From a virus (Duplodnaviria; Caudoviricetes), in the IMG/VR virus record IMGVR_UViG_3300011113_000660, positions 1 to 61,689 of that record: a DNA stretch of 61,689 bases; one strand, given 5' to 3'. Position 1 is the stretch's first letter, and every line of letters begins with the position of its first letter. A model generated the notes under the pieces. The model saw only the letters and a program-made list of their open reading frames with translations, was not told where the DNA came from and ran no database searches. Below are positions 1,262 to 19,605 of this stretch, piece after piece. The translations under genes were made by a program, and so were the position numbers.

Positions 1262-2349
1262 ACTGGCAATTATATCACTGGCACTTTGAAGTTAGCGGAA
1301 AATGCACCTTAAAATGTCCTAGGTGCCCTCGCAACGACACTGCCCCGGTGCCGTGGATTAATAAAGAATTAACTTTAGATTTTTTTAAAAAAACACTAAC
1401 ACCAGACTTGTTAAAAACACAGGTTAAAAGAATAACCATGTGTGGAGATGTAGGCGATCCGATCTATGCCAGTGAATACTTAGATATCATTGAGTATATT
1501 AAGTCGCACAATCCTAAAATTCACGTCTATACAATTACCAATGGCAGTTATCGTAAACCCGAATGGTGGCAGAGATTTGCCCAGATCAGCAACAAATACG
1601 ATACTGTAAATTTCAGTGTCGACGGGTACGATGGTGCTAGTAATAACTTGTATCGCATTGGTAGCAACTGGGAAAGCATAATGACCGGTATGCGTATCAT
1701 GTGCCAAGAGAGTCCAGCGTTTGTTTACTGGGCTACTATTGTTTTTGCTTTCAATCAGGACTACTTAGATCAAATTGAACAACAAGCACGTGATATTGGA
1801 TGCGATGGATTACAGTTAACTTACAGCACCAAGTTTGGTAGTAAGTATGGCGAAGCCTATGGTGGTGCCACAGATCCAATGGAGCCTAGACCAGAATTTA
1901 TTAGTAAGACCCACAGATACGAAAGATATTTCCGTAATATCAGCGGACGAGAACAACACAATCAAGACTATCTTGAACACAACTTACAACGATACCGAGC
2001 AGTTAAACAACAACACAATAGGTTCATTACACCTATGTGCAGTGTTGGTAACCGCGGATTATATGTTAGTGCAGATGGTGTGTTACACCCGTGCAGTTGG
2101 GTTAGTTTTCCGTACGTATCAATGAGCACCGGGCGTAAAACAATACACTTTAAAAATAGTTTTCATCAGGTACATAGAGAGAAGTTAAATTTAAACACTC
2201 GCAGTTTAGACGAAGTGTTAAATGATCCAATTTGGAATTTGCTGTCTGAGTCATTTGACAATCCAGAAAAAGCCTGGGTCGAATGCGAACAAAAATGTAA
2301 TTGTAATATAGTGGATGAAGAATATGCTGTTGGGTGGCTTACAAATTAA
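1258..2349 (+). CDS. Radical SAM protein with C-terminal Cys-rich (SPASM/twitch-like) domain
   Basis: CxxxCxxC (CTLKCPRC), GDP, TNGS and FSVDG motifs. C-terminal C..G.L.PC and CEQKC. Confidence 0.9.
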   Translation: MNWQLYHWHFEVSGKCTLKCPRCPRNDTAPVPWINKELTLDFFKKTLTPDLLKTQVKRITMCGDVGDPIYASEYLDIIEYIKSHNPKIHVYTITNGSYRKPEWWQRFAQISNKYDTVNFSVDGYDGASNNLYRIGSNWESIMTGMRIMCQESPAFVYWATIVFAFNQDYLDQIEQQARDIGCDGLQLTYSTKFGSKYGEAYGGATDPMEPRPEFISKTHRYERYFRNISGREQHNQDYLEHNLQRYRAVKQQHNRFITPMCSVGNRGLYVSADGVLHPCSWVSFPYVSMSTGRKTIHFKNSFHQVHREKLNLNTRSLDEVLNDPIWNLLSESFDNPEKAWVECEQKCNCNIVDEEYAVGWLTN

Positions 2350-2383
2350 TGGGTATCAAGACAAATATGATAAACAATAGTCC

Positions 2384-2815
2384 ATGTCATGGCTATTCGA
2401 AAGCAAAACCGTTGAAATTTTACCCGAAGACTGCGTGGGCTTTGTTTACGTGATCACAAATAAACTGACCGGCAGAAAGTATATTGGAAAAAAATTAGCA
2501 AAATTCAGCAAGACAACATATAAGACAGTAAAACTCAAGAACGGCAACAAGAAGCGCAAGAAAATACGTGGCAAAATCGAATCAGACTGGCAGACCTACT
2601 ACGGCAGCAACGAACAACTCAACAAAGATGTAGCACAGTTAGGCAACGAAAACTTCTCTCGTGAAATCTTATACTACTGTAGGTCCAAGGCCGAATGTAG
2701 TTACATAGAAGCTAGAGAACAATTTAACCATAGAGTTCTGGAGTCGGATGACTGGTACAACGGACACATTCAAGTGCGTGTACATGGCAGTCATATAAAA
2801 AATAGATTTAAGTAA
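2384..2815 (+). CDS. Small Seg-type GIY-YIG nuclease domain protein with no C-terminal DNA-binding domain
   Basis: GFVY...KYIG, YYGS, NFSREIL, conserved E (YIEARE) and YN. Lys-rich insertion after YIG. Confidence 0.8.
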   Translation: MSWLFESKTVEILPEDCVGFVYVITNKLTGRKYIGKKLAKFSKTTYKTVKLKNGNKKRKKIRGKIESDWQTYYGSNEQLNKDVAQLGNENFSREILYYCRSKAECSYIEAREQFNHRVLESDDWYNGHIQVRVHGSHIKNRFK

Positions 2816-2818
2816 GAG

Positions 2819-3424
2819 ATGAAAAAAATTTTAATTTGTGGGGATAGTTTTGCTGTTGATTACAAGAATTTGACAAGCAACAACCCAGGCTGGTCTAGTT
2901 TATTATCCAACAATTTTTTGGTAACTAATCTGTCACAGGCTGGGGCAAGCGAATATAGAATTCTTAAACAAATAAAAAATGAAAATATTGATTTGTATGA
3001 CGCTATTATAATTAGCCATACTAGCCCAAATCGGTTGTATGTCAATGAACATCCTATTCATAAAAATAATGCCATTCATCAAAATAGTGATTTACTTTAT
3101 AATGATGTGGTATATCACGCCAACTTGGATCCTGACAATAAGATATTAATGTCAGCTAAAAATTATTTTGAAAATATTTTTGATATGACATATCATGAAG
3201 ATCTATTTTTTTTAATTGCTGATCAAATTAATCTTCTTGCAAATGATAAACCATGCCTGAATCTATTTACATTGTATGACAAAAATTGTAACAAGTTTCA
3301 ACATTATTTAAATTTAAAAAAACAATTTAAAATTGTACCGGGACAAACCAATCATTATACAAGCACAACAAATTTGCAAATTTCCAATTTAATCAAAAAA
3401 TGGATTGATCTTGTTACCAATTAA
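2819..3424 (+). CDS. SGNH/GDSL-hydrolase-like protein
   Basis: N-terminal ICGDSF, block II NLSQAGAS, C-terminal NH. AT-rich. Confidence 0.6.
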   Translation: MKKILICGDSFAVDYKNLTSNNPGWSSLLSNNFLVTNLSQAGASEYRILKQIKNENIDLYDAIIISHTSPNRLYVNEHPIHKNNAIHQNSDLLYNDVVYHANLDPDNKILMSAKNYFENIFDMTYHEDLFFLIADQINLLANDKPCLNLFTLYDKNCNKFQHYLNLKKQFKIVPGQTNHYTSTTNLQISNLIKKWIDLVTN

Positions 3425-4430
3425 AATAACCATTTTTGTCGGGGATGTTTCAGAAACGACATCAAGTGTTGCTTTGGCGTTGGACAAGGAAGCAGTGTTG
3501 CTCGATCAAAGTAACTACCTGCAATTCTTAAATAAAGAATTGTTAAATCATACTTTTTATACCAGCTTAGGCGATTTACCAAAAGATATAGCTATTATGT
3601 ATCGTATATTAGACAAAGCCGATGACATTATTTACTGCCCGACTAATTCCTGGAGCGATGATAAAGCTCTCGACATTACAAATGTCACTAGTTCCATACA
3701 AGGACTCACCGAATTTATTTTGTTTAATATTTCTCAAATAAAACATAATGTATATAATCTAGATTTAACAAAATATACTAACAGCGTATACACTATTCTT
3801 GCTGATTCTCGTAAAACAGATAGTCAACAACTATGGATTTCTGGTTGTAGTGTAACACACGGCGTAGGAGTAGATGCGTCTCAACGGTATGGGCAACTTC
3901 TTGCAAATTTATTAGAGTTGCCGGTGTCGTTTTTAACCGCTGGAGGATCATCTATTCCGTGGGCAATAGATCAAATAATTAGGTCAGATGTATGTCCTGG
4001 TGATATTGTAGTTTTAGGACTAATCAGTGAGTTTAGATTTCCATACTGGGCTGGTAAAAATGGTGTTTGGCACATAGCTTCTTCACATCGATTGCACGCT
4101 AAAAAATTACCCTTTACAAATTTATCACACAGCATGTTAGACAGACTAATTACAGATGAGAATTGCTTTTATCAATCTGTAATTAGTATTAACCAACTTA
4201 TAAATTTTTGCAGAAAACTTAATCTAAAATTATTAATTTTAGGATTACTCTCCTCACACAAATTAGCATTACAACTAAGCAACATATCACAATTCAAAAA
4301 CTATGTAAACTTTGAATCACCAAATTCTTACGTTGATCTAGGAACCGACGATAAGCATCCTGGGCCACAACAACACAAACTCTACGCAGACTTTTGTCAA
4401 TCAGCACTAAAACAACTTCATTACATTTAA
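3405..4430 (+). CDS. Protein with C-terminal SGNH/GDSL-like domain
   Basis: GCSVTHGVG, AGGSS and DDKHPG (DxxHP). AT-rich; exact start codon uncertain. Confidence 0.6.
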   Translation: MILLPIKITIFVGDVSETTSSVALALDKEAVLLDQSNYLQFLNKELLNHTFYTSLGDLPKDIAIMYRILDKADDIIYCPTNSWSDDKALDITNVTSSIQGLTEFILFNISQIKHNVYNLDLTKYTNSVYTILADSRKTDSQQLWISGCSVTHGVGVDASQRYGQLLANLLELPVSFLTAGGSSIPWAIDQIIRSDVCPGDIVVLGLISEFRFPYWAGKNGVWHIASSHRLHAKKLPFTNLSHSMLDRLITDENCFYQSVISINQLINFCRKLNLKLLILGLLSSHKLALQLSNISQFKNYVNFESPNSYVDLGTDDKHPGPQQHKLYADFCQSALKQLHYI

Positions 4431-4858
4431 AACTAGATAGGCAACTTTACTGACTCTGCGCCGGGTGTTTGATCCGGCCCCATCGAAGAACGGTGCAATA
4501 CCCGGTCTGGAAAACTTTGGGCGTCAAAGGCAATTGCTAACTTAAGGCAACAAATGGTTTGAGCTCTGTGAAAAAGACACAACTCATGCTCATAGGACTT
4601 GGTTCTTCTCGGGTCACTAGGGTTCCGTTGACATGTGAAGCTTGAGTAGGGGGTACCGGTCAACCGCCTCCGTGTAGGAAACTACAATCTCATTGGAATG
4701 AAGTGACTGCGATACTCGGATAATGCAGAACTTTTCACCCGGCAACGGGTGAATTGTGACCACTTAATCTGGATAATACGGAAAAACATTTTCTTTATAG
4801 CAACAGATAAAGATGCGTGAGCAAAGCGAAACGCATAGACTTCGTAATACGAAGTCTC
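4431..4858 (+). ncRNA. Putative large structured non-coding RNA of unknown class
   Basis: About 430 bp between convergent genes, more GC-rich than the flanks, with at least 9 helices found by eye. Two are capped by GNRA tetraloops on the + strand (TGTAG-GAAA-CTACA 4673-4686; TTCACCCG-GCAA-CGGGTGAA 4734-4753). G-U pairs read correctly on the + strand. Confidence 0.6.
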
Positions 4859-4860
4859 TT
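4837..4860. terminator. Hairpin at the junction of convergent transcription units (possible terminator or RNA 3' end)
   Basis: AGACTTCGT-AAT-ACGAAGTCT, directly abutting the stop of the minus-strand radical SAM gene; weak T tail. Confidence 0.4.
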
Positions 4861-6427
4861 ATACCATCAACGCACTGTCTGCTTTGGAAGTTTGAATTGG
4901 AATGATTCTTTTAACCAAAGGTTTTACAACGTCAGTGAAAGCTGCTGCTCGAGTTCGGTTGACTTCAAGATACAACTCAATTTCGCCATTGAGATTGTAG
5001 CTCATGTTTATTGCATCTCGTGTGGCACGTATCCAGCGTAGATACCTTTCTTTGACTGTGAGTTCGGGATTAGAATCACATACCCAGTCAGATACGTTGT
5101 TGGATCCTTCAAACCAACGAGTACCAAGCTCTTGTGACATTGCCTCAACCGGAGTATGATCTTGTATAGCCATGGTAAATCTTACATCGTAAATCAACAC
5201 TGTGTCGTTGATAACATAGCGTTGCCAGCGTTTTAACAATTCCAGTGACTCCTGGAAATCTTGTTCTGTTTCGGTCACATACCCTACAATCATTAATAAT
5301 GAATTTTGAATACCGTATTTTTCGCACATGGCCAAATGATAATCAACATCTTCATTGGTAAATTTTTTACGCATGTGGATTCTTACTTTTTCACTGCCGC
5401 TCTCTAATCCCACTGAGATCGTTTTTAGTCCTACCTTGCTCATAAGTTGAAACATTCTTTCTTTGTGTGCTGTTTTGGGTCTCAGAATAAAATTTCCGTT
5501 CAGTGAAAGTTTAGATAGGCCTGGATGATTGTTAATATGGATGTCAAGCACTTCTAACATTTCCATAAACTGACTCAGGGATCCATTGAGCAAACTATCA
5601 CTAAAGATAAATTCGGTTACCCCAGCATCTAGATAGCACTGTAATATTTCATCAGCTATGTGTTTTCCTGTCCGGAATCGATATTTTTTCCAGTGAGCGG
5701 CCACATCACAAAATGTACAATCTTGTACACACCCCCGGCTACCGGTTATGGTTATTACAGGGGTTCCTTTTGGTCCTAAATAGTCATTGAGATTATCTTT
5801 GAGTTTTTTATAATCTACAAAAGGCAAACTGTCTAAATCGTTAATTTGTTCTTGCTTGTGTTCAACATTATTTTTGCTGTTCAATCCAGCAATGTTTCTA
5901 TGTCCAGTGATGAATTTTTCAAAAATTATGTCTCCTTCTCCAAGCACATAATAGTCCAATAGATCCTGATCGACTAGGTATCTTCCATAAGAATCAGAAT
6001 TCAATCCTTTGAGTTGGTAGGTTGTGTTGACTCCAGATCCCCCGGCAATAATTGGCAAGTTGGTGTTGTGTTTTTTACAATATCGTAAAAATAGTTCGCA
6101 CCATTGATGTTGGATGTAACTGAATACCGAGATAGCAATAGCGTCAGCACCACTTTGTTTGATTCGATCAGTTATGGCAAGAAAAAAATTGTCAATTTCT
6201 TGTTGTTTTTCGGCAATAGCCACATCCAGATTGCTCCAACTATGTTTGTAAAAATATTCCCACTGCTGGTCTCCAAAATAATACCGTAACTCCATGCTGA
6301 GATCCATTAGATCATAATCGACCTGATTACGATTACACACTCCGGCAAGAAATCCTAAACTAGAAGGCAACCGAGAACTGGGCAGTTGCGCACCGTTAAC
6401 AAGCATGATTTTTTTAAACTTTGACAT
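4859..6427 (-). CDS. B12-binding-domain radical SAM protein (class B methyltransferase-like architecture)
   Basis: N-terminal cobalamin-binding-like region (SLGFLAG, IIAGGSG, LGEGD), SRGCVQDCTFC, GLESGS and IVGYVTET. Confidence 0.88.
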   Translation of the reverse strand: MSKFKKIMLVNGAQLPSSRLPSSLGFLAGVCNRNQVDYDLMDLSMELRYYFGDQQWEYFYKHSWSNLDVAIAEKQQEIDNFFLAITDRIKQSGADAIAISVFSYIQHQWCELFLRYCKKHNTNLPIIAGGSGVNTTYQLKGLNSDSYGRYLVDQDLLDYYVLGEGDIIFEKFITGHRNIAGLNSKNNVEHKQEQINDLDSLPFVDYKKLKDNLNDYLGPKGTPVITITGSRGCVQDCTFCDVAAHWKKYRFRTGKHIADEILQCYLDAGVTEFIFSDSLLNGSLSQFMEMLEVLDIHINNHPGLSKLSLNGNFILRPKTAHKERMFQLMSKVGLKTISVGLESGSEKVRIHMRKKFTNEDVDYHLAMCEKYGIQNSLLMIVGYVTETEQDFQESLELLKRWQRYVINDTVLIYDVRFTMAIQDHTPVEAMSQELGTRWFEGSNNVSDWVCDSNPELTVKERYLRWIRATRDAINMSYNLNGEIELYLEVNRTRAAAFTDVVKPLVKRIIPIQTSKADSALMV

Positions 6428-6935
6428 TGGTTAATTCTTTTTCGAATGCATCGAGCTTATCTAAGAACCGCTGACGTGCCTCTGGCAACGGTATGAATAA
6501 GTTTAAAACGGGTTGACTCTTATTTATTTTTTCTTGAACTGCCCAGTCTATCACAGGTACGCCCATTGGCATCTTGAATGTACCATTTGGACCCCAAATC
6601 AGTGACTGCGGATGCTCGGTACCATCGAAACAAAAAATTCCAGAGAACTTGAAATAGTTTGGGAGTTTAACATCTTCTATATAGATATCGTCTAAAGTCA
6701 CAATCTGATCTTGTACTATGACATTGTTTTCAACTATGCAGTTGTTGTCAGTTTTTCCATAGCGTTCAATACTAAGTGTATATAATCCGGATTCTATTTT
6801 TTCCAGCGGCAGACTAATTTGTTCTTGAGGCCTGGTAAATTCAAAGTCAACTAACGTTGTGTTGTTCAGGGTAAATTTTAACTTTGGCCAACCGTTGCAT
6901 TCGGTAGCTGAGAAATGGAAAATTAATTGATTCAT
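6414..6935 (-). CDS. Hypothetical protein (beta-rich), coupled to the radical SAM gene
   Basis: 173-aa ORF overlapping both neighbours; AT-rich. Confidence 0.7.
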   Translation of the reverse strand: MNQLIFHFSATECNGWPKLKFTLNNTTLVDFEFTRPQEQISLPLEKIESGLYTLSIERYGKTDNNCIVENNVIVQDQIVTLDDIYIEDVKLPNYFKFSGIFCFDGTEHPQSLIWGPNGTFKMPMGVPVIDWAVQEKINKSQPVLNLFIPLPEARQRFLDKLDAFEKELTNVKV

Positions 6936-7270
6936 AGATTTTTATCAGGCCAATCACGAAACAGTGCATGCTGTATGTCACCTGCGACGAACTGATTGAA
7001 ACTTCGATGTTTGGTTTCTAATTCACCTTCGAGTGGTGCAACTCTTCGGAATGCTTCATCCATTTGTGCCATGTCGCGGAATTCCATGATTATCATCCAC
7101 TCGGGCATGTCTGCTATGCTACGGAATCCCATTTTGCATCTAGTGATTCTGTATGATTCCATTTTGCCTTCTGAAATCAAATGATCAAAGAAACCCTTCA
7201 TGCCGTTGACCCAATCAATGTCACTGATGTCGCCTTCTTTGTTTGCCCAAATTGTGTATAAGTCTGCCAT
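6932..7270 (-). CDS. Small dimeric alpha-beta-barrel-like protein (DUF6614-like)
   Basis: ITRxKMGF...EW.I..EF..MAQMDEAF..VA...H pattern; family recalled from memory, not searched. Confidence 0.5.
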   Translation of the reverse strand: MADLYTIWANKEGDISDIDWVNGMKGFFDHLISEGKMESYRITRCKMGFRSIADMPEWMIIMEFRDMAQMDEAFRRVAPLEGELETKHRSFNQFVAGDIQHALFRDWPDKNL

Positions 7271-18690: not shown

Positions 18691-18786
18691 TAAATACTTG
18701 TCAACGCAATTCGGCGTTTTATGCAGGCTTTACCCCCTGCGTAGTGACTAGAACTCACATTGGGCTTCTTTAAAGGAGAAAACAAA
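18691..18786 (+). promoter_or_regulatory. Late promoter TAAATA plus structured 5' leader with three hairpins
   Basis: TAAATA 18691-18696; AACGC/GCGTT 18703-18718; TATGCAGG/CCTGCGTA 18720-18743; GTGA/TCAC 18744-18758; AAGGAG SD. Confidence 0.5.
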
Positions 18787-19605
18787 ATGGGACGTCCTCT
18801 CAAAATTAAAAAAATTACGGAATCTGCTTATAATTCCACTACCGGTGCAAATCCTGGTGTAGACATTGGTTTCAATGCATTGGCATATTTGACTGCACCT
18901 GTATTGCCAAGCAATGTATGGGATTCAACCACAGAGTATCTTGGTGTGGTTGGTGGTGTGCAACCTCCAACAGTGGCCACAACAAACTATCCAATCATCA
19001 AGTGCGAAGTCAACATCGCCAACAGCTACAGCGGTCAAGTGCCCGGATTGATTATCCGTCAAAAAGGTTCACGCAAGTTCTTGGTCGCAACCACAGCTGG
19101 TATTGATCCTGCCAACGCTGTAATTGGCGGCACACCCACAGTGGCCTTGCGTATTCGTGTGGTTGGTAACACCAACTGGACAGCTATGGGCGCTCCTGAA
19201 GGTTATGGCATAGGCACAATCTTTACTCCCACAGCAGCCTCTGCAGGTGGCACCAATGGAACAGCACAAGAAGTTGGCATCTGTGTGTTACAAAATGATT
19301 TGACACCCACAGCAGGCAACATGAGCATCAGCTATTTCAGCAACGACAGTTCTGAAACAGCAGTCAGCAAAATTACCAACAAGTTCTTGCAGAATTTTGC
19401 TGGCGGTTGCGCAGGCGGCGGAGCCAATACTGGCGAAGTTTGGGATCCAGATCTAGTGGTCAACAACGTGGCATTCGCTGACAACTTCTTCAGCGACGAA
19501 GGTGTCACAGCCAAGTCTGGTGCAGACGTTGAAACCTGGGCAGGAACAAGCCAACTTGCAACCGGCAATCTGGACCTTGCTATTGTAGAAAACTATAAAA
19601 CTTAA
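18787..19605 (+). CDS. Putative virion structural protein
   Basis: Strong SD before ATG 18787 (MGRPLKIK); Thr/Gly/Asn-rich; IIRQKGSRKFLV. Confidence 0.65.
   Translation: MGRPLKIKKITESAYNSTTGANPGVDIGFNALAYLTAPVLPSNVWDSTTEYLGVVGGVQPPTVATTNYPIIKCEVNIANSYSGQVPGLIIRQKGSRKFLVATTAGIDPANAVIGGTPTVALRIRVVGNTNWTAMGAPEGYGIGTIFTPTAASAGGTNGTAQEVGICVLQNDLTPTAGNMSISYFSNDSSETAVSKITNKFLQNFAGGCAGGGANTGEVWDPDLVVNNVAFADNFFSDEGVTAKSGADVETWAGTSQLATGNLDLAIVENYKT

What the first reader, a model, noticed from the sequence alone, without database searches (positions are those of the whole stretch)
4431..4858. Unassigned ~430-nt highly structured non-coding RNA candidate
Seen: this is the longest gene-free stretch in a tightly packed window, and it is more GC-rich than its AT-rich neighbours. 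It is filled with helices: CCGGGTGTT/AATACCCGG (4461-4505) enclosing CATCG/CGGTG; TTGC/GCAA (4534-4550); TGAG..TGTG/CACA..CTCA (4560-4586); TGCTCA/TGAGTA (4587-4648); GGGGG/CCTCC around CGG-TCAA-CCG (4649-4671); GAAA- and GCAA-capped stems (4673-4686, 4734-4753); and three 3' stems (4792-4857). GTCAC at 4613-4617 can pair with either of two GTGAC copies (4703-4707, 4756-4760), each followed shortly by GGATAAT, suggesting a pseudoknot or two-state switch. Established: GNRA loops and G-U pairs are typical of folded RNAs. I see no tRNA, tmRNA, RNase P or group I/II intron signature. Inference: a possibly undescribed large phage ncRNA (ribozyme, RNP scaffold or origin-associated RNA).
Basis: partly seen in the sequence, partly recalled or inferred. 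Interest (0 to 1): 0.85.

Follow-up and report, generated by a model that had tools for sequence, protein, structure and literature searches.

The report
Twin-box structured RNA of a phage
The gene-free gap encodes a real, roughly 400-base folded non-coding RNA that is common in uncultured giant T4-like lake phages and carries one fast-changing 7-letter word twice; what reads that word, and so what the RNA does, is still unknown.

Summary
Window 4431-4858 is the longest ORF-free gap (428 nt). It holds a conserved RNA gene on the + strand, about 4449-4856.

Relatives occur in 121 of 225 IMG/VR loci that I fetched with two short conserved words. On 79 non-redundant copies, 81 modelled pairs are 98.0% paired against 88.2% in shuffles. 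42 pairs show compensatory double changes. A covarying pseudoknot is present.

The two GGATAAT words (4718-4724, 4771-4777) are real "twin boxes". They are identical within 78 of 79 aligned copies (the 79th by eye), across 9 word variants, and they change together repeatedly.

No Rfam family matches the window. The 3' half is homologous to longer phage RNAs whose 5' third is the orphan motif Polynucleobacter-1 (RF01718).

A small SegE-like GIY-YIG nuclease gene lies upstream in 102 of 111 loci that have room for it. I found no partner for the boxes.

This scan has found the same family before on other DNA. Function is unknown. It is a new variant of a little-known kind.

The parts
4449..4856 (+). 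The whole conserved RNA, about 408 nt, a member of the 'twin-box' phage RNA family
   Evidence: The nhmmer profile aligns to 4427-4863. Conservation across copies with different upstream genes starts near ACGAC/ACTGAC at 4449-4454 (alignment). Seven near-invariant G-U pairs fit only the + strand.
4452..4525 (+). 5' domain, closed by GAC 4452-54 / GTC 4523-25. It holds hairpin GCCGGGT/ATCCGGC (4460-66/4471-77), CCCA/TGGG (4479-82/4518-21), AGA/TCT (4487-89/4506-08) and CGG/CCG (4491-93/4502-04).
   Evidence: helices 1-4: 10 of 13 pairs have changes on both sides., 5' hairpin: each copy's own partner gives 6.81 pairs on average, against 4.87 when partners are swapped between copies.
4534..4550 (+). 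Hairpin TTGCT/GGCAA with a nearly invariant loop AACUUAA
   Evidence: helix 5: 4 of 5 pairs have double changes. Loop columns are invariant or nearly so.
4560..4586 (+). Hairpin TGAG/CTCA plus TG/CA with an A-rich loop
   Evidence: helices 6-7. The pair of columns 222-249 reads UA 39, GC 30, CG 7.
4593..4619 (+). Hairpin TAGGACTTGG / TCGGGTC(A)CTA. Its loop (4602-4608) forms the pseudoknot.
   Evidence: helix 8: 10 pairs, 99.4% paired, 3 with double changes.
4695..4703 (+). 3' strand of the pseudoknot, pairing with loop 4602-4608 (GTTCT/GGAAT or CTTC/GAAG in this window)
   Evidence: each copy's own partner gives 7.71 consecutive pairs on average, against 5.53 for swapped partners. Examples are ATCTAT/ATAGAT and ATTTATTAT/ATAATAAAT. 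helix 9: the pair of columns 268-428 reads UA 33, CG 32.
4620..4671 (+). Almost invariant core: GGGTTCCGTTGAYATGTGAAGCT, then GGGGGTACCGGTCAACCGCCTCC
   Evidence: Invariant columns are listed. The helix 4649-53/4667-71 has one covarying pair (GC 61, AU 18). The predicted 4620-27/4634-42 hairpin never varies, so it cannot be tested.
4643..4692 (+). Helix TGAG 4643-46 / CTCA 4689-92, enclosing the core hairpin and the GNRA-capped stem 4674-76/4683-85
   Evidence: helices 11 and 14. Columns 309-416 read UA 42, AU 35. Columns 367-406 read AU 37, GC 15, UA 14, CG 8.
4703..4724 (+). Repeat A: GTGAC-N6-ACTC followed by twin box 1, GGATAAT (4718-4724)
4734..4753 (+). Conserved hairpin TTCACCC-GGCAA-GGGTGAA between the two boxes
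   Evidence: helix 15: 99.3% paired. Columns 480-488 read GC 70, CG 8.
4756..4777 (+). Repeat B: GTGAC-N6-ATCT followed by twin box 2, GGATAAT (4771-4777)
4778..4812 (+). Linker of variable length and sequence. This window's own small stem here is not conserved.
   Evidence: Alignment, columns 521-564.
4813..4836 (+). Hairpin ATGCGT/ACGCAT capped by GAGC...AGCGAA: two G-C pairs (4821-22/4826-27) flanked by possible tandem G-A pairs
   Evidence: helices 16-17: 8 of 8 pairs have double changes.
4837..4856 (+). Terminal hairpin AGACTTC/GAAGTCT, the probable 3' end. No T-run follows it.
   Evidence: helix 18: 5 of 7 pairs have double changes. The consensus scan calls no terminator.
2384..2815 (+). 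SegE-like GIY-YIG nuclease gene (143 aa, catalytic domain only), the family's usual upstream neighbour
   Evidence: Pfam PF19835, E = 6.9e-33. A homologue lies upstream on the same strand in 102 of 111 loci with room for it.

Best explanation
Shown: window ~4449-4856 (+) is a single-copy gene for a stand-alone, highly structured non-coding RNA of about 408 nt. It sits at a fixed, syntenic place in a lineage of uncultured giant T4-like freshwater phages. It has 18 supported helices, at least one pseudoknot, and long invariant stretches.

It has two parts.
- The 5' part (about 4449-4625) is specific to this subfamily.
- The 3' part (about 4626-4856) is shared with longer phage RNAs that start with the Rfam motif Polynucleobacter-1. 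It holds a conserved hairpin flanked by two direct repeats (GUGAC-N6-ACUC/AUCU). Each repeat ends in the same 7-nt purine-rich word, GGAUAAU in this window.

Inferred: the RNA works as an RNA, not as a cis signal for its neighbours. It presents the two identical words to one and the same reader twice. The invariant core does the conserved job, such as folding, scaffolding or possibly catalysis. The words set specificity, so they must change together.

The neighbouring Seg-like nuclease gene is most simply a long-resident homing-type gene sitting beside a conserved RNA gene, with no proven role for the RNA.
For: Homologues:
- 13 of 117 loci match the window's sequence alone.
- 121 of 225 loci match a 10-sequence profile.
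- 79 copies, window included, are near full length and under 97% identical to each other.

Structure:
- RNAalifold predicts 74 pairs, 38 with double changes.
- My 81-pair model is 98.0% paired against 88.2% in shuffles (0 of 500 shuffles reach it).
- It has 42 pairs and 613 cells with double changes, against 27.5 and 163 in shuffles.
- Slid controls are 37-46% paired.
- Pseudoknot: each copy's own partner gives 7.71 consecutive pairs on average, against 5.53 for partners swapped between copies.

Strand: seven G-U pairs are kept in 64-78 of 79 copies.

Not coding: the only sizeable ORF (4433-4663, - strand) stays at 70 aa or more in 19 of 92 loci.

Twin boxes:
- They are identical in 78 of 79 aligned rows, with 8 words.
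- Diverged relatives keep the rule with other words: ACGAAAT twice and AGATGAA twice.
- Box positions 1 and 5 share information only with their twin (MI 0.88 and 1.0; next best 0.39 or less).
- On a tree built without the box columns, position 1 changes at least 16 times in each box. All 10 independent pairs on supported branches are concordant (sign test p about 0.002).

Genome context:
- One copy in each of 7 records, including a complete 346,856-bp genome.
- Conserved synteny.
- The RNA is intact in this window although two genes separate it from seg and two more separate it from its usual downstream neighbour.

RNA libraries: contigs of relatives in 4 metatranscriptome runs from 4 studies cover 4452-4779, with almost nothing on the flanks.
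Against: - No discrete transcript is shown. The runs were available only as assembled contigs. They were found through the RNA's own conserved words. They cannot show ends or strand and may include DNA carry-over.
- No sigma-70-like promoter or intrinsic terminator is called at the ends.
- Single-sequence folding is only modestly better than shuffles (z = -2.32).
- No reader of the boxes was found:
  - No complementary column inside the RNA covaries with them.
  - The box's complement is not enriched in the flanks: 39 for a copy's own word against a mean of 44 for each of the other three variants, over 631 kb.
  - It is not enriched near ORF starts: 3 for the own word against 7 summed over the three other variants, at 559 starts.
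  - No third site changes in step with the boxes across 7 long records.
  - No genome-specific enrichment of the word.
  - No phage tRNA tracks the box.
  - No column of seg or of six neighbouring protein families tracks it cleanly.
- Predicted accessibility of the boxes is average: 0.44 and 0.54 against 0.40 overall.
- Most box changes are A<->G. An invariant U could tolerate these, so a cis partner without covariation is not excluded.
Confidence: 0.6

Rival explanations
1. The RNA is the partner of the neighbouring minimal GIY-YIG nuclease. It would act as a scaffold or guide that gives target specificity to a catalytic domain lacking its own DNA-binding domain, with the twin boxes as seeds.
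For: - A seg homologue lies upstream on the same strand in 102 of 111 loci with room for it: 85 directly adjacent and 17 at 0.7-2.2 kb. That is unusually constant for a selfish homing gene.
- The protein is 143 aa. The Pfam SegE GIY-YIG domain covers residues 3-129.
- The boxes evolve fast and in step.
Against: - No seg column tracks the box state (best MI 0.38-0.53, no clean split).
- No complementary sites are enriched or co-varying in 7 long records.
- Seven-nt seeds are very short.
- 9 of 111 loci with room have no seg.
- The RNA stays intact when genes are inserted between it and seg, as in this window.
- No GIY-YIG enzyme is known to me to be RNA-guided (recalled, not searched beyond).
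Confidence: 0.07
2. It is an RNA-only assembly. Like ROOL, GOLLD and OLE, it would form homo-oligomers, with the boxes or the self-complementary AUCURGAU at box 2 as contacts between molecules.
For: - It is a large ornate phage RNA with invariant loops.
- Box 2 with its constant flank reads AUCURGAU, which is self-complementary if G-U is allowed (my reading).
- There is a precedent in Kretsch et al., bioRxiv 10.1101/2024.12.08.627333 (search listing and abstract start only).
Against: - Identical words cannot pair with each other.
- No complementary covarying segment exists in the RNA.
- The self-complementarity is lost in diverged relatives such as AUCUACGA in L149.
- The palindromic UUAA in the AACUUAA loop is broken in 7 of 79 copies (my count).
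Confidence: 0.08
3. It is a cis-acting part of the flanking transcription units: a structured 3' UTR, processing site or terminator region for the seg operon and the convergent operon.
For: - It lies exactly between convergent genes.
- In 85 loci it starts within a few bases of the seg stop codon.
- It ends in a strongly covarying hairpin.
Against: - About 400 nt with a pseudoknot, 18 helices and long invariant single-stranded stretches is far more than termination needs.
- The sequence is kept unchanged when the upstream gene is replaced by unrelated genes, in this window and 17 loci.
- No terminator consensus is called.
Confidence: 0.08
4. The selected object is DNA: an origin or iteron-like site, or a homing-endonuclease target, with two 22-bp direct repeats 53 bp apart.
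For: - The repeats GTGAC-N6-AYYY-RGATRAT start 53 bp apart, about five helical turns.
- Words that stay identical to each other but differ between phages are what protein-bound iterons or operators show (recalled analogy).
- A nuclease gene sits next door.
Against: - Compensatory changes and conserved G-U pairs across the whole element show selection on a single-stranded + strand fold.
- The 4-nt flanks of the two boxes differ constantly (ACTC against ATCT), which argues against one DNA-binding site used twice.
- This does not exclude a DNA role for the boxes in addition.
Confidence: 0.05
5. It is a decayed gene or a neutral spacer.
For: Small ORFs of 30-76 aa exist on both strands.
Against: - Strong nucleotide conservation with covariation.
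- The longest ORF is kept in only 19 of 92 loci.
Confidence: 0.01

Closest known systems
Polynucleobacter-1 RNA motif (Rfam RF01718; listed in table 1 of Weinberg et al. 2010, Genome Biol 11:R31, PMC2864571; I saw only that table row)
   Same: In 8 of 14 diverged loci, RF01718 (81-116 bits) sits about 100 nt upstream of a 3' domain homologous to window ~4636-4856. That domain has the same invariant core word and twin boxes. The upstream Seg-like gene and the habitat (fresh water) are the same too.
   Different: The catalogued 141-nt motif itself is absent here: no match at E<=10 in the window, and none in 4 related records including a complete genome. This window's 5' ~180 nt has a different set of helices. 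Rfam's model covers only the first third of the longer RNAs and none of the twin-box domain.
ROOL, GOLLD and other large ornate phage-associated RNAs (Rfam families; Kretsch et al. bioRxiv 10.1101/2024.12.08.627333, listing and abstract start only)
   Same: Several hundred nt, many helices and pseudoknots, phage-borne, no known function.
   Different: No Rfam match. It is smaller. None of those is known to me to carry two identical, co-changing words (recalled).
T4 segB inside the tRNA / stable RNA C and D gene cluster
   Same: A free-standing GIY-YIG Seg gene sits beside conserved stable-RNA genes of a T4-like phage. Conserved RNA genes make good homing sites.
   Different: Here the nuclease has only the catalytic domain and is nearly always present. 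The RNA is a single 400-nt molecule unrelated to tRNA (ARAGORN finds none).
Repeated recognition words that co-evolve with their reader, such as lambda-type nutL/nutR boxB with N protein, or plasmid iterons with Rep (recalled analogy)
   Same: Two copies of a short word are identical within a genome and differ between relatives.
   Different: No reader has been identified. The words here lie in one RNA 53 nt apart, and no neighbouring protein tracks them.

Membership tests
Polynucleobacter-1 (RF01718) | Match to the Rfam covariance model at or above 37 bits | tested here: not met
   No RF01718 match at E<=10 in 4300-5000 or in the whole window. The same model scores 81-116 bits on 8 diverged loci, so the test works.
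Polynucleobacter-1 (RF01718) | Homology to the rest of the full-length RNAs that carry the motif | tested here: met
   The profile built from this subfamily hits the region downstream of RF01718 in L135, L205, L208, L173, L202, L150, L141 and L133 (E from 2e-21 to 1e-13). They share the same core word and twin boxes.
Twin-box phage RNA (a family defined by this scan, not published) | Invariant core GGUACCGGUCAACCGCC | tested here: met
   Present at 4652-4668.
Twin-box phage RNA (a family defined by this scan, not published) | Two identical 7-nt words behind ACUC and AUCU, flanking a conserved hairpin | tested here: met
   GGATAAT at 4718-4724 and 4771-4777, with the hairpin at 4734-4753.
Twin-box phage RNA (a family defined by this scan, not published) | Covarying pseudoknot between a hairpin loop and the stretch before repeat A | tested here: met
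   4602-4608 pairs with 4695-4703.
Twin-box phage RNA (a family defined by this scan, not published) | SegE-like GIY-YIG gene upstream on the same strand | tested here: met
   2384-2815, 1.6 kb upstream with two inserted genes in between.
ROOL / GOLLD / HEARO / OLE / raiA and all other Rfam 15 families | Covariance-model match | tested here: not met
   The gathering scan of the window finds only freshwater-2 at 18702-18789. The E<=10 scan of the gap finds only noise.
tRNA / tmRNA | ARAGORN call | tested here: not met
   0 genes in the window.
Intrinsic terminator pair of convergent genes | G+C-rich hairpin followed by a T-run | tested here: not met
   0 terminator-like sites in 2200-5100.
RNA-guided nuclease system | Guide segment complementary to target sites, with co-variation of guide and target or protein | tested here: inconclusive
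   No targets or tracking protein columns were found. Only 7 long records and 7-nt words were available, so power is low.

The most novel reading that the evidence does not exclude
The twin boxes are a programmable address. The RNA, together with the always-adjacent catalytic-domain-only GIY-YIG nuclease, would form an RNA-directed or RNA-scaffolded nuclease, or a self/non-self discrimination device used between co-infecting giant phages. Its specificity would be rewritten by changing both boxes together.
Probability: 0.05. Interest if true: 0.9.

Novelty: new variant of a known kind. Interest (0 to 1): 0.6.

Why it matters
Large, intricately folded RNAs without a known job are rare, and in the past they have led to new biochemistry. 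This one is abundant in giant T4-like lake phages. It is absent from Rfam except for one third of its sister form.

It carries an unusual evolutionary signature: two short words kept identical while they change many times. That signature says a specific reader exists, and it offers a direct experimental handle, namely swapping one box, swapping both, or pulling down what binds them.

For annotation, the result shows that Rfam's Polynucleobacter-1 is only the 5' end of a longer RNA. It also shows that a second subfamily, this window's, lacks that end altogether.

Tried and rejected
- Flanking-protein route to homologues: the search for related loci with the two genes next to the gap found nothing. 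Synteny later showed these genes are window-specific inserts.
- blastn of the gap against 50,697 GenBank phage records: no match.
- A helix between the two N6 spacers of the repeats: each copy's own partner gives 3.0 pairs, swapped partners 3.12; rejected.
- Pairing of the stretch after box 1 with ATTRTG or with the stretch after box 2: own no better than swapped.
- AUAAU of either box with AUUGU (4753-57): pairs are possible in at least 88% of copies, but there is no covariation and it is lost in diverged relatives. Left open as a weak possibility.
- GGUCA of the core loop (4658-62) with UGACC (4757-61) as a second pseudoknot: all pairs possible, none varies, so it cannot be tested by covariation.
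- Search for a reader of the boxes:
  - columns inside the RNA
  - complement in the flanks
  - complement at ORF starts
  - ATTATCC in the window, 8 found against 5.3 expected, two of them the boxes themselves
  - freshwater-2 RNA, no complement
  - a third co-varying site in 7 long records
  - genome-wide word counts
  - phage tRNAs: only a tRNA-Asp loop pairs 7 of 7, in 2 of 3 genomes, and it does not change with the box
  - columns of neighbouring proteins
  All were negative.
- Reading the boxes as RGA-URA (a sense codon plus UAA/UGA, by my reading in 77 of the 79 copies tabulated), or as an Asp codon, is numerology. It fails in diverged words.
- Accessibility by partition function was uninformative.
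- Exact-word scan of 185,579 species genomes: 90 stretches, about the number expected by chance (my estimate). Only 2 are true copies, both on phage-like contigs binned into one Haliscomenobacter MAG. This is no evidence for a host.
- Read laying: parts of the stretch without contig cover (the flanks) prove nothing.
- Literature: searches for 'Polynucleobacter-1', for GIY-YIG + noncoding RNA + phage + covariation, for freshwater-2 + RNA motif and for GOLLD/ROOL/phage/GIY-YIG found no description of this RNA.
Full report
**Setting.** The window is a 61,689-bp fragment of an IMG/VR virus record, 18% complete by CheckV. It encodes a T4-type portal protein (PF07230, E = 3.6e-102). The finding, 4431-4858, lies between convergent genes. 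On the left is 3405-4430 (+), 341 aa, with no Pfam family. On the right is 4859-6427 (-), a B12-binding radical-SAM protein. It is the longest stretch without an ORF of 90 aa or more: 428 nt, with 248 nt next. Its GC is 0.46, against 0.321 and 0.385 for the neighbouring genes and 0.473 for the whole window.

**Known families.**
- Rfam 15 at gathering thresholds finds one RNA in the whole window, freshwater-2 at 18702-18789.
- A permissive scan (E<=10) of 4300-5000 gives only two noise hits.
- ARAGORN finds nothing.
- Folding the + strand alone gives -127.1 kcal/mol, z = -2.32. The - strand gives z = -1.25. This is suggestive, not decisive.
- blastn against 50,697 GenBank phage records finds nothing.

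**Homologues.**
- The scan's own notes said that look-alike stretches had been called a 'twin-box phage RNA' related to Polynucleobacter-1. I took that as a lead and tested it.
- Two short words from the gap were used to scan IMG/VR.
- nhmmer with the window's 428 nt alone hit 13 of 117 loci from the first scan, E from 5e-81 to 5e-14.
- A profile of 10 copies hit 121 of 225 fetched loci (123 rows).
- 87 hits are near full length and 81 are distinct. 79, including the window, are under 97% identical to each other. The nearest is 88.8% identical to the window.

**Structure.**
- On the 79-row alignment A2, RNAalifold predicts 74 pairs, 38 with double changes.
- I removed two doubtful pairs and added three helices seen in a helix screen, including a pseudoknot. 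I then counted the result.
- The model has 81 pairs in 18 helices. 98.0% of cells are paired, against 88.2% in shuffles (0 of 500 shuffles reach it).
- 42 pairs have double changes against 27.5 in shuffles. 613 cells have double changes against 163.
- When partners are slid by 1-3 columns, pairing falls to 37-46%.
- Two regions that MAFFT aligns poorly were tested copy by copy, comparing each copy's own partner with partners swapped between copies.
  - The 5' hairpin gives 6.81 pairs with its own partner and 4.87 with swapped partners.
  - The loop-to-downstream pseudoknot gives 7.71 and 5.53.
- In this window the pseudoknot joins 4602-4608 to 4695-4703.
- Seven G-U pairs are kept in 64-78 of 79 copies. 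On the other strand they would be C-A mismatches, so the RNA is read from the + strand.
- The only sizeable ORF in the gap (- strand, 76 aa) survives at 70 aa or more in 19 of 92 loci.

- The long-range CCGGGTGTT/AATACCCGG helix is replaced by local hairpins.
- TGCTCA/TGAGTA is replaced by TGAG 4643-46 with CTCA 4689-92 (UA 42, AU 35).
- GTCAC 4613-17 is inside the covarying hairpin 4593-4602/4609-4619. It is not a switch partner of the GTGAC copies.

**Twin boxes.**
GGATAAT' copies are the most unusual feature.
- They are 22-nt imperfect direct repeats, GTGAC-N6-ACTC-word and GTGAC-N6-ATCT-word. They flank the conserved hairpin 4734-4753.
- The 7-nt word is the same in both repeats in 78 of 79 aligned rows. 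The words and their counts are: AGATGAT 25, GGATAAT 21 (including the window), AGATAAT 17, GGATGAT 8, AGATGAA 3, ACATGAA 2, GGATGAG 1, AGATCAA 1.
- The 79th row is a shifted alignment. It reads AGACGAA in both repeats by eye.
- More distant relatives keep the rule with quite different words: ACGAAAT twice, AGATGAA twice, TGGAAA twice, and ATGAAGG/ATGAAGA. The 4-nt flanks ACTC and ATCT stay constant.
- The variable positions share information with their twin (MI 0.88 and 1.0) and with nothing else in the RNA (0.39 or less).
- On a tree built without the box columns, position 1 changes at least 16 times in each box. In all 10 independent comparisons on supported branches the twin goes the same way (p about 0.002). 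Position 5 changes 7-8 times; its 4 comparisons are too few for significance.
- Recombination could carry both boxes together. Even so, crossovers between them, and single mutations, would give unequal boxes, and none is seen among these 79 (L167, outside this set, differs at one base).

**Relation to Polynucleobacter-1.**
- RF01718 does not match the window at E<=10. It matches none of four related records, one of them a complete 346,856-bp genome.
- In 8 of 14 diverged loci RF01718 matches at 81-116 bits. It lies about 100 nt upstream of a stretch that my profile recognises from about the invariant core onward. That stretch holds the same core word, the twin boxes and the 3' hairpins.
- So the catalogued 141-nt motif is the 5' third of a longer RNA.
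- This window belongs to a sister subfamily. It has the same 3' domain (about 4626-4856) and a different 5' domain (about 4449-4625).
- The 2010 paper's main text only lists the motif in a table.

**Context.**
- A SegE-like GIY-YIG gene lies directly upstream on the same strand in 85 of 121 loci.
- It lies 0.7-2.2 kb upstream in 17. It is absent in 9. Ten loci have no room to tell.
- In this window it is at 2384-2815 (143 aa; the catalytic domain covers residues 3-129). Two low-GC genes (2819-4430) are inserted before the RNA.
- Synteny over 92 loci shows the usual order:
  - a 582-aa gene
  - a radical-SAM gene
  - seg
  - the RNA
  - then, convergent: DUF6614 (window 6932-7270), a 145-aa gene, a 167-aa gene and a 280-aa gene
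- The window has two further inserts (4859-6935) on that side. The RNA is therefore a fixed, vertically kept gene, and it survives intact when its neighbours change.
- Each of 7 long records holds exactly one copy. The relatives are giant phages with 24-29 ARAGORN gene calls, almost all tRNAs.

**Expression.**
- 20 public runs from 17 studies, mostly lake or fresh water, hold part of the stretch. 6 are RNA libraries.
- I laid 3900-5400 at 80% likeness on contigs of four metatranscriptome runs from four studies. They cover 4452-4779, with summed contig depth up to 167 in one bin. Almost nothing lies on the flanking genes.
- These are contigs of relatives, found by the RNA's own words. They have no strand or end information. 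I count this as a weak hint only.
- No promoter or terminator consensus marks the ends.

- No complementary column in cis.
- No enrichment of the complement in 631 kb of flanks: 39 for a copy's own word against a mean of 44 per other variant.
- No enrichment at 559 ORF starts: 3 against 7 summed over the three other variants.
- Nothing in the window.
- No third site with conserved flanks changes with the box among 7 long records.
- No genome-specific excess of the word.
- No phage tRNA follows it.
- No column of seg or of six neighbouring protein families splits cleanly with it.

**Verdict.**
- The finding is a genuine, intricately folded ncRNA gene. It is a member of a family that this scan has met many times on other DNA, and no public description of it turned up in my searches.
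- Its most likely mode of action, by inference only, is as a stable RNA that shows one specificity word twice to a single, still unknown reader.
- The nuclease-partner, RNA-assembly, cis-element and DNA-site readings are less likely, but none is fully excluded.

Noticed in passing
window 18702-18789 (+); also L135 14865-14940: A freshwater-2 RNA (RF02980, 68.8 bits) lies just upstream of an ATG at 18787 preceded by AAAGGAGAAAA. The same motif lies in the same position before a homologous MGRP... start in a relative. It looks like a 5' leader. It contains no complement of the twin box.
   Followed up: partly
window 2819-4430 and 4859-6935: Four genes flanking the RNA are absent from the usual syntenic arrangement of relatives. 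They are two unknown + strand genes with GC 0.32, and a B12-binding radical-SAM gene plus a 173-aa gene on the - strand. They look like insertions on both sides of the RNA gene, which makes this junction an insertion hot spot.
   Followed up: partly
G001 (record of L140), 346,856 bp, RNA at about 195271-195693: A complete relative with direct terminal repeats. ARAGORN reports 29 genes, almost all tRNAs in one cluster (102-116 kb), plus a permuted tmRNA call at 110821-111310 that I did not verify.
   Followed up: no
G001 tRNA-Asp at 105915-105989; G003 contig 1 tRNA-Asp at 145340-145414: The phage tRNA-Asp(GUC) has an unusual anticodon loop, UUGUCUA, with U at position 37. A third relative (G002) has the ordinary CUGUCAC.
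   Followed up: no
L277 and L265 (G003 contigs 1 and 3; 183 kb and 148 kb): Two different twin-box-RNA-bearing contigs, one with 28 ARAGORN gene calls (nearly all tRNAs), are binned into one Haliscomenobacter sp. MAG. They look like giant-phage contigs. This could be a mis-binning or a host hint.
   Followed up: partly
window 4438-4445 and 4544-4551: The heptamer AGGCAAC occurs twice: once just before the conserved RNA, and once as the 3' strand of the 4534-4550 hairpin. Many relatives lack the first copy, so I did not treat it as part of the RNA.
   Followed up: partly
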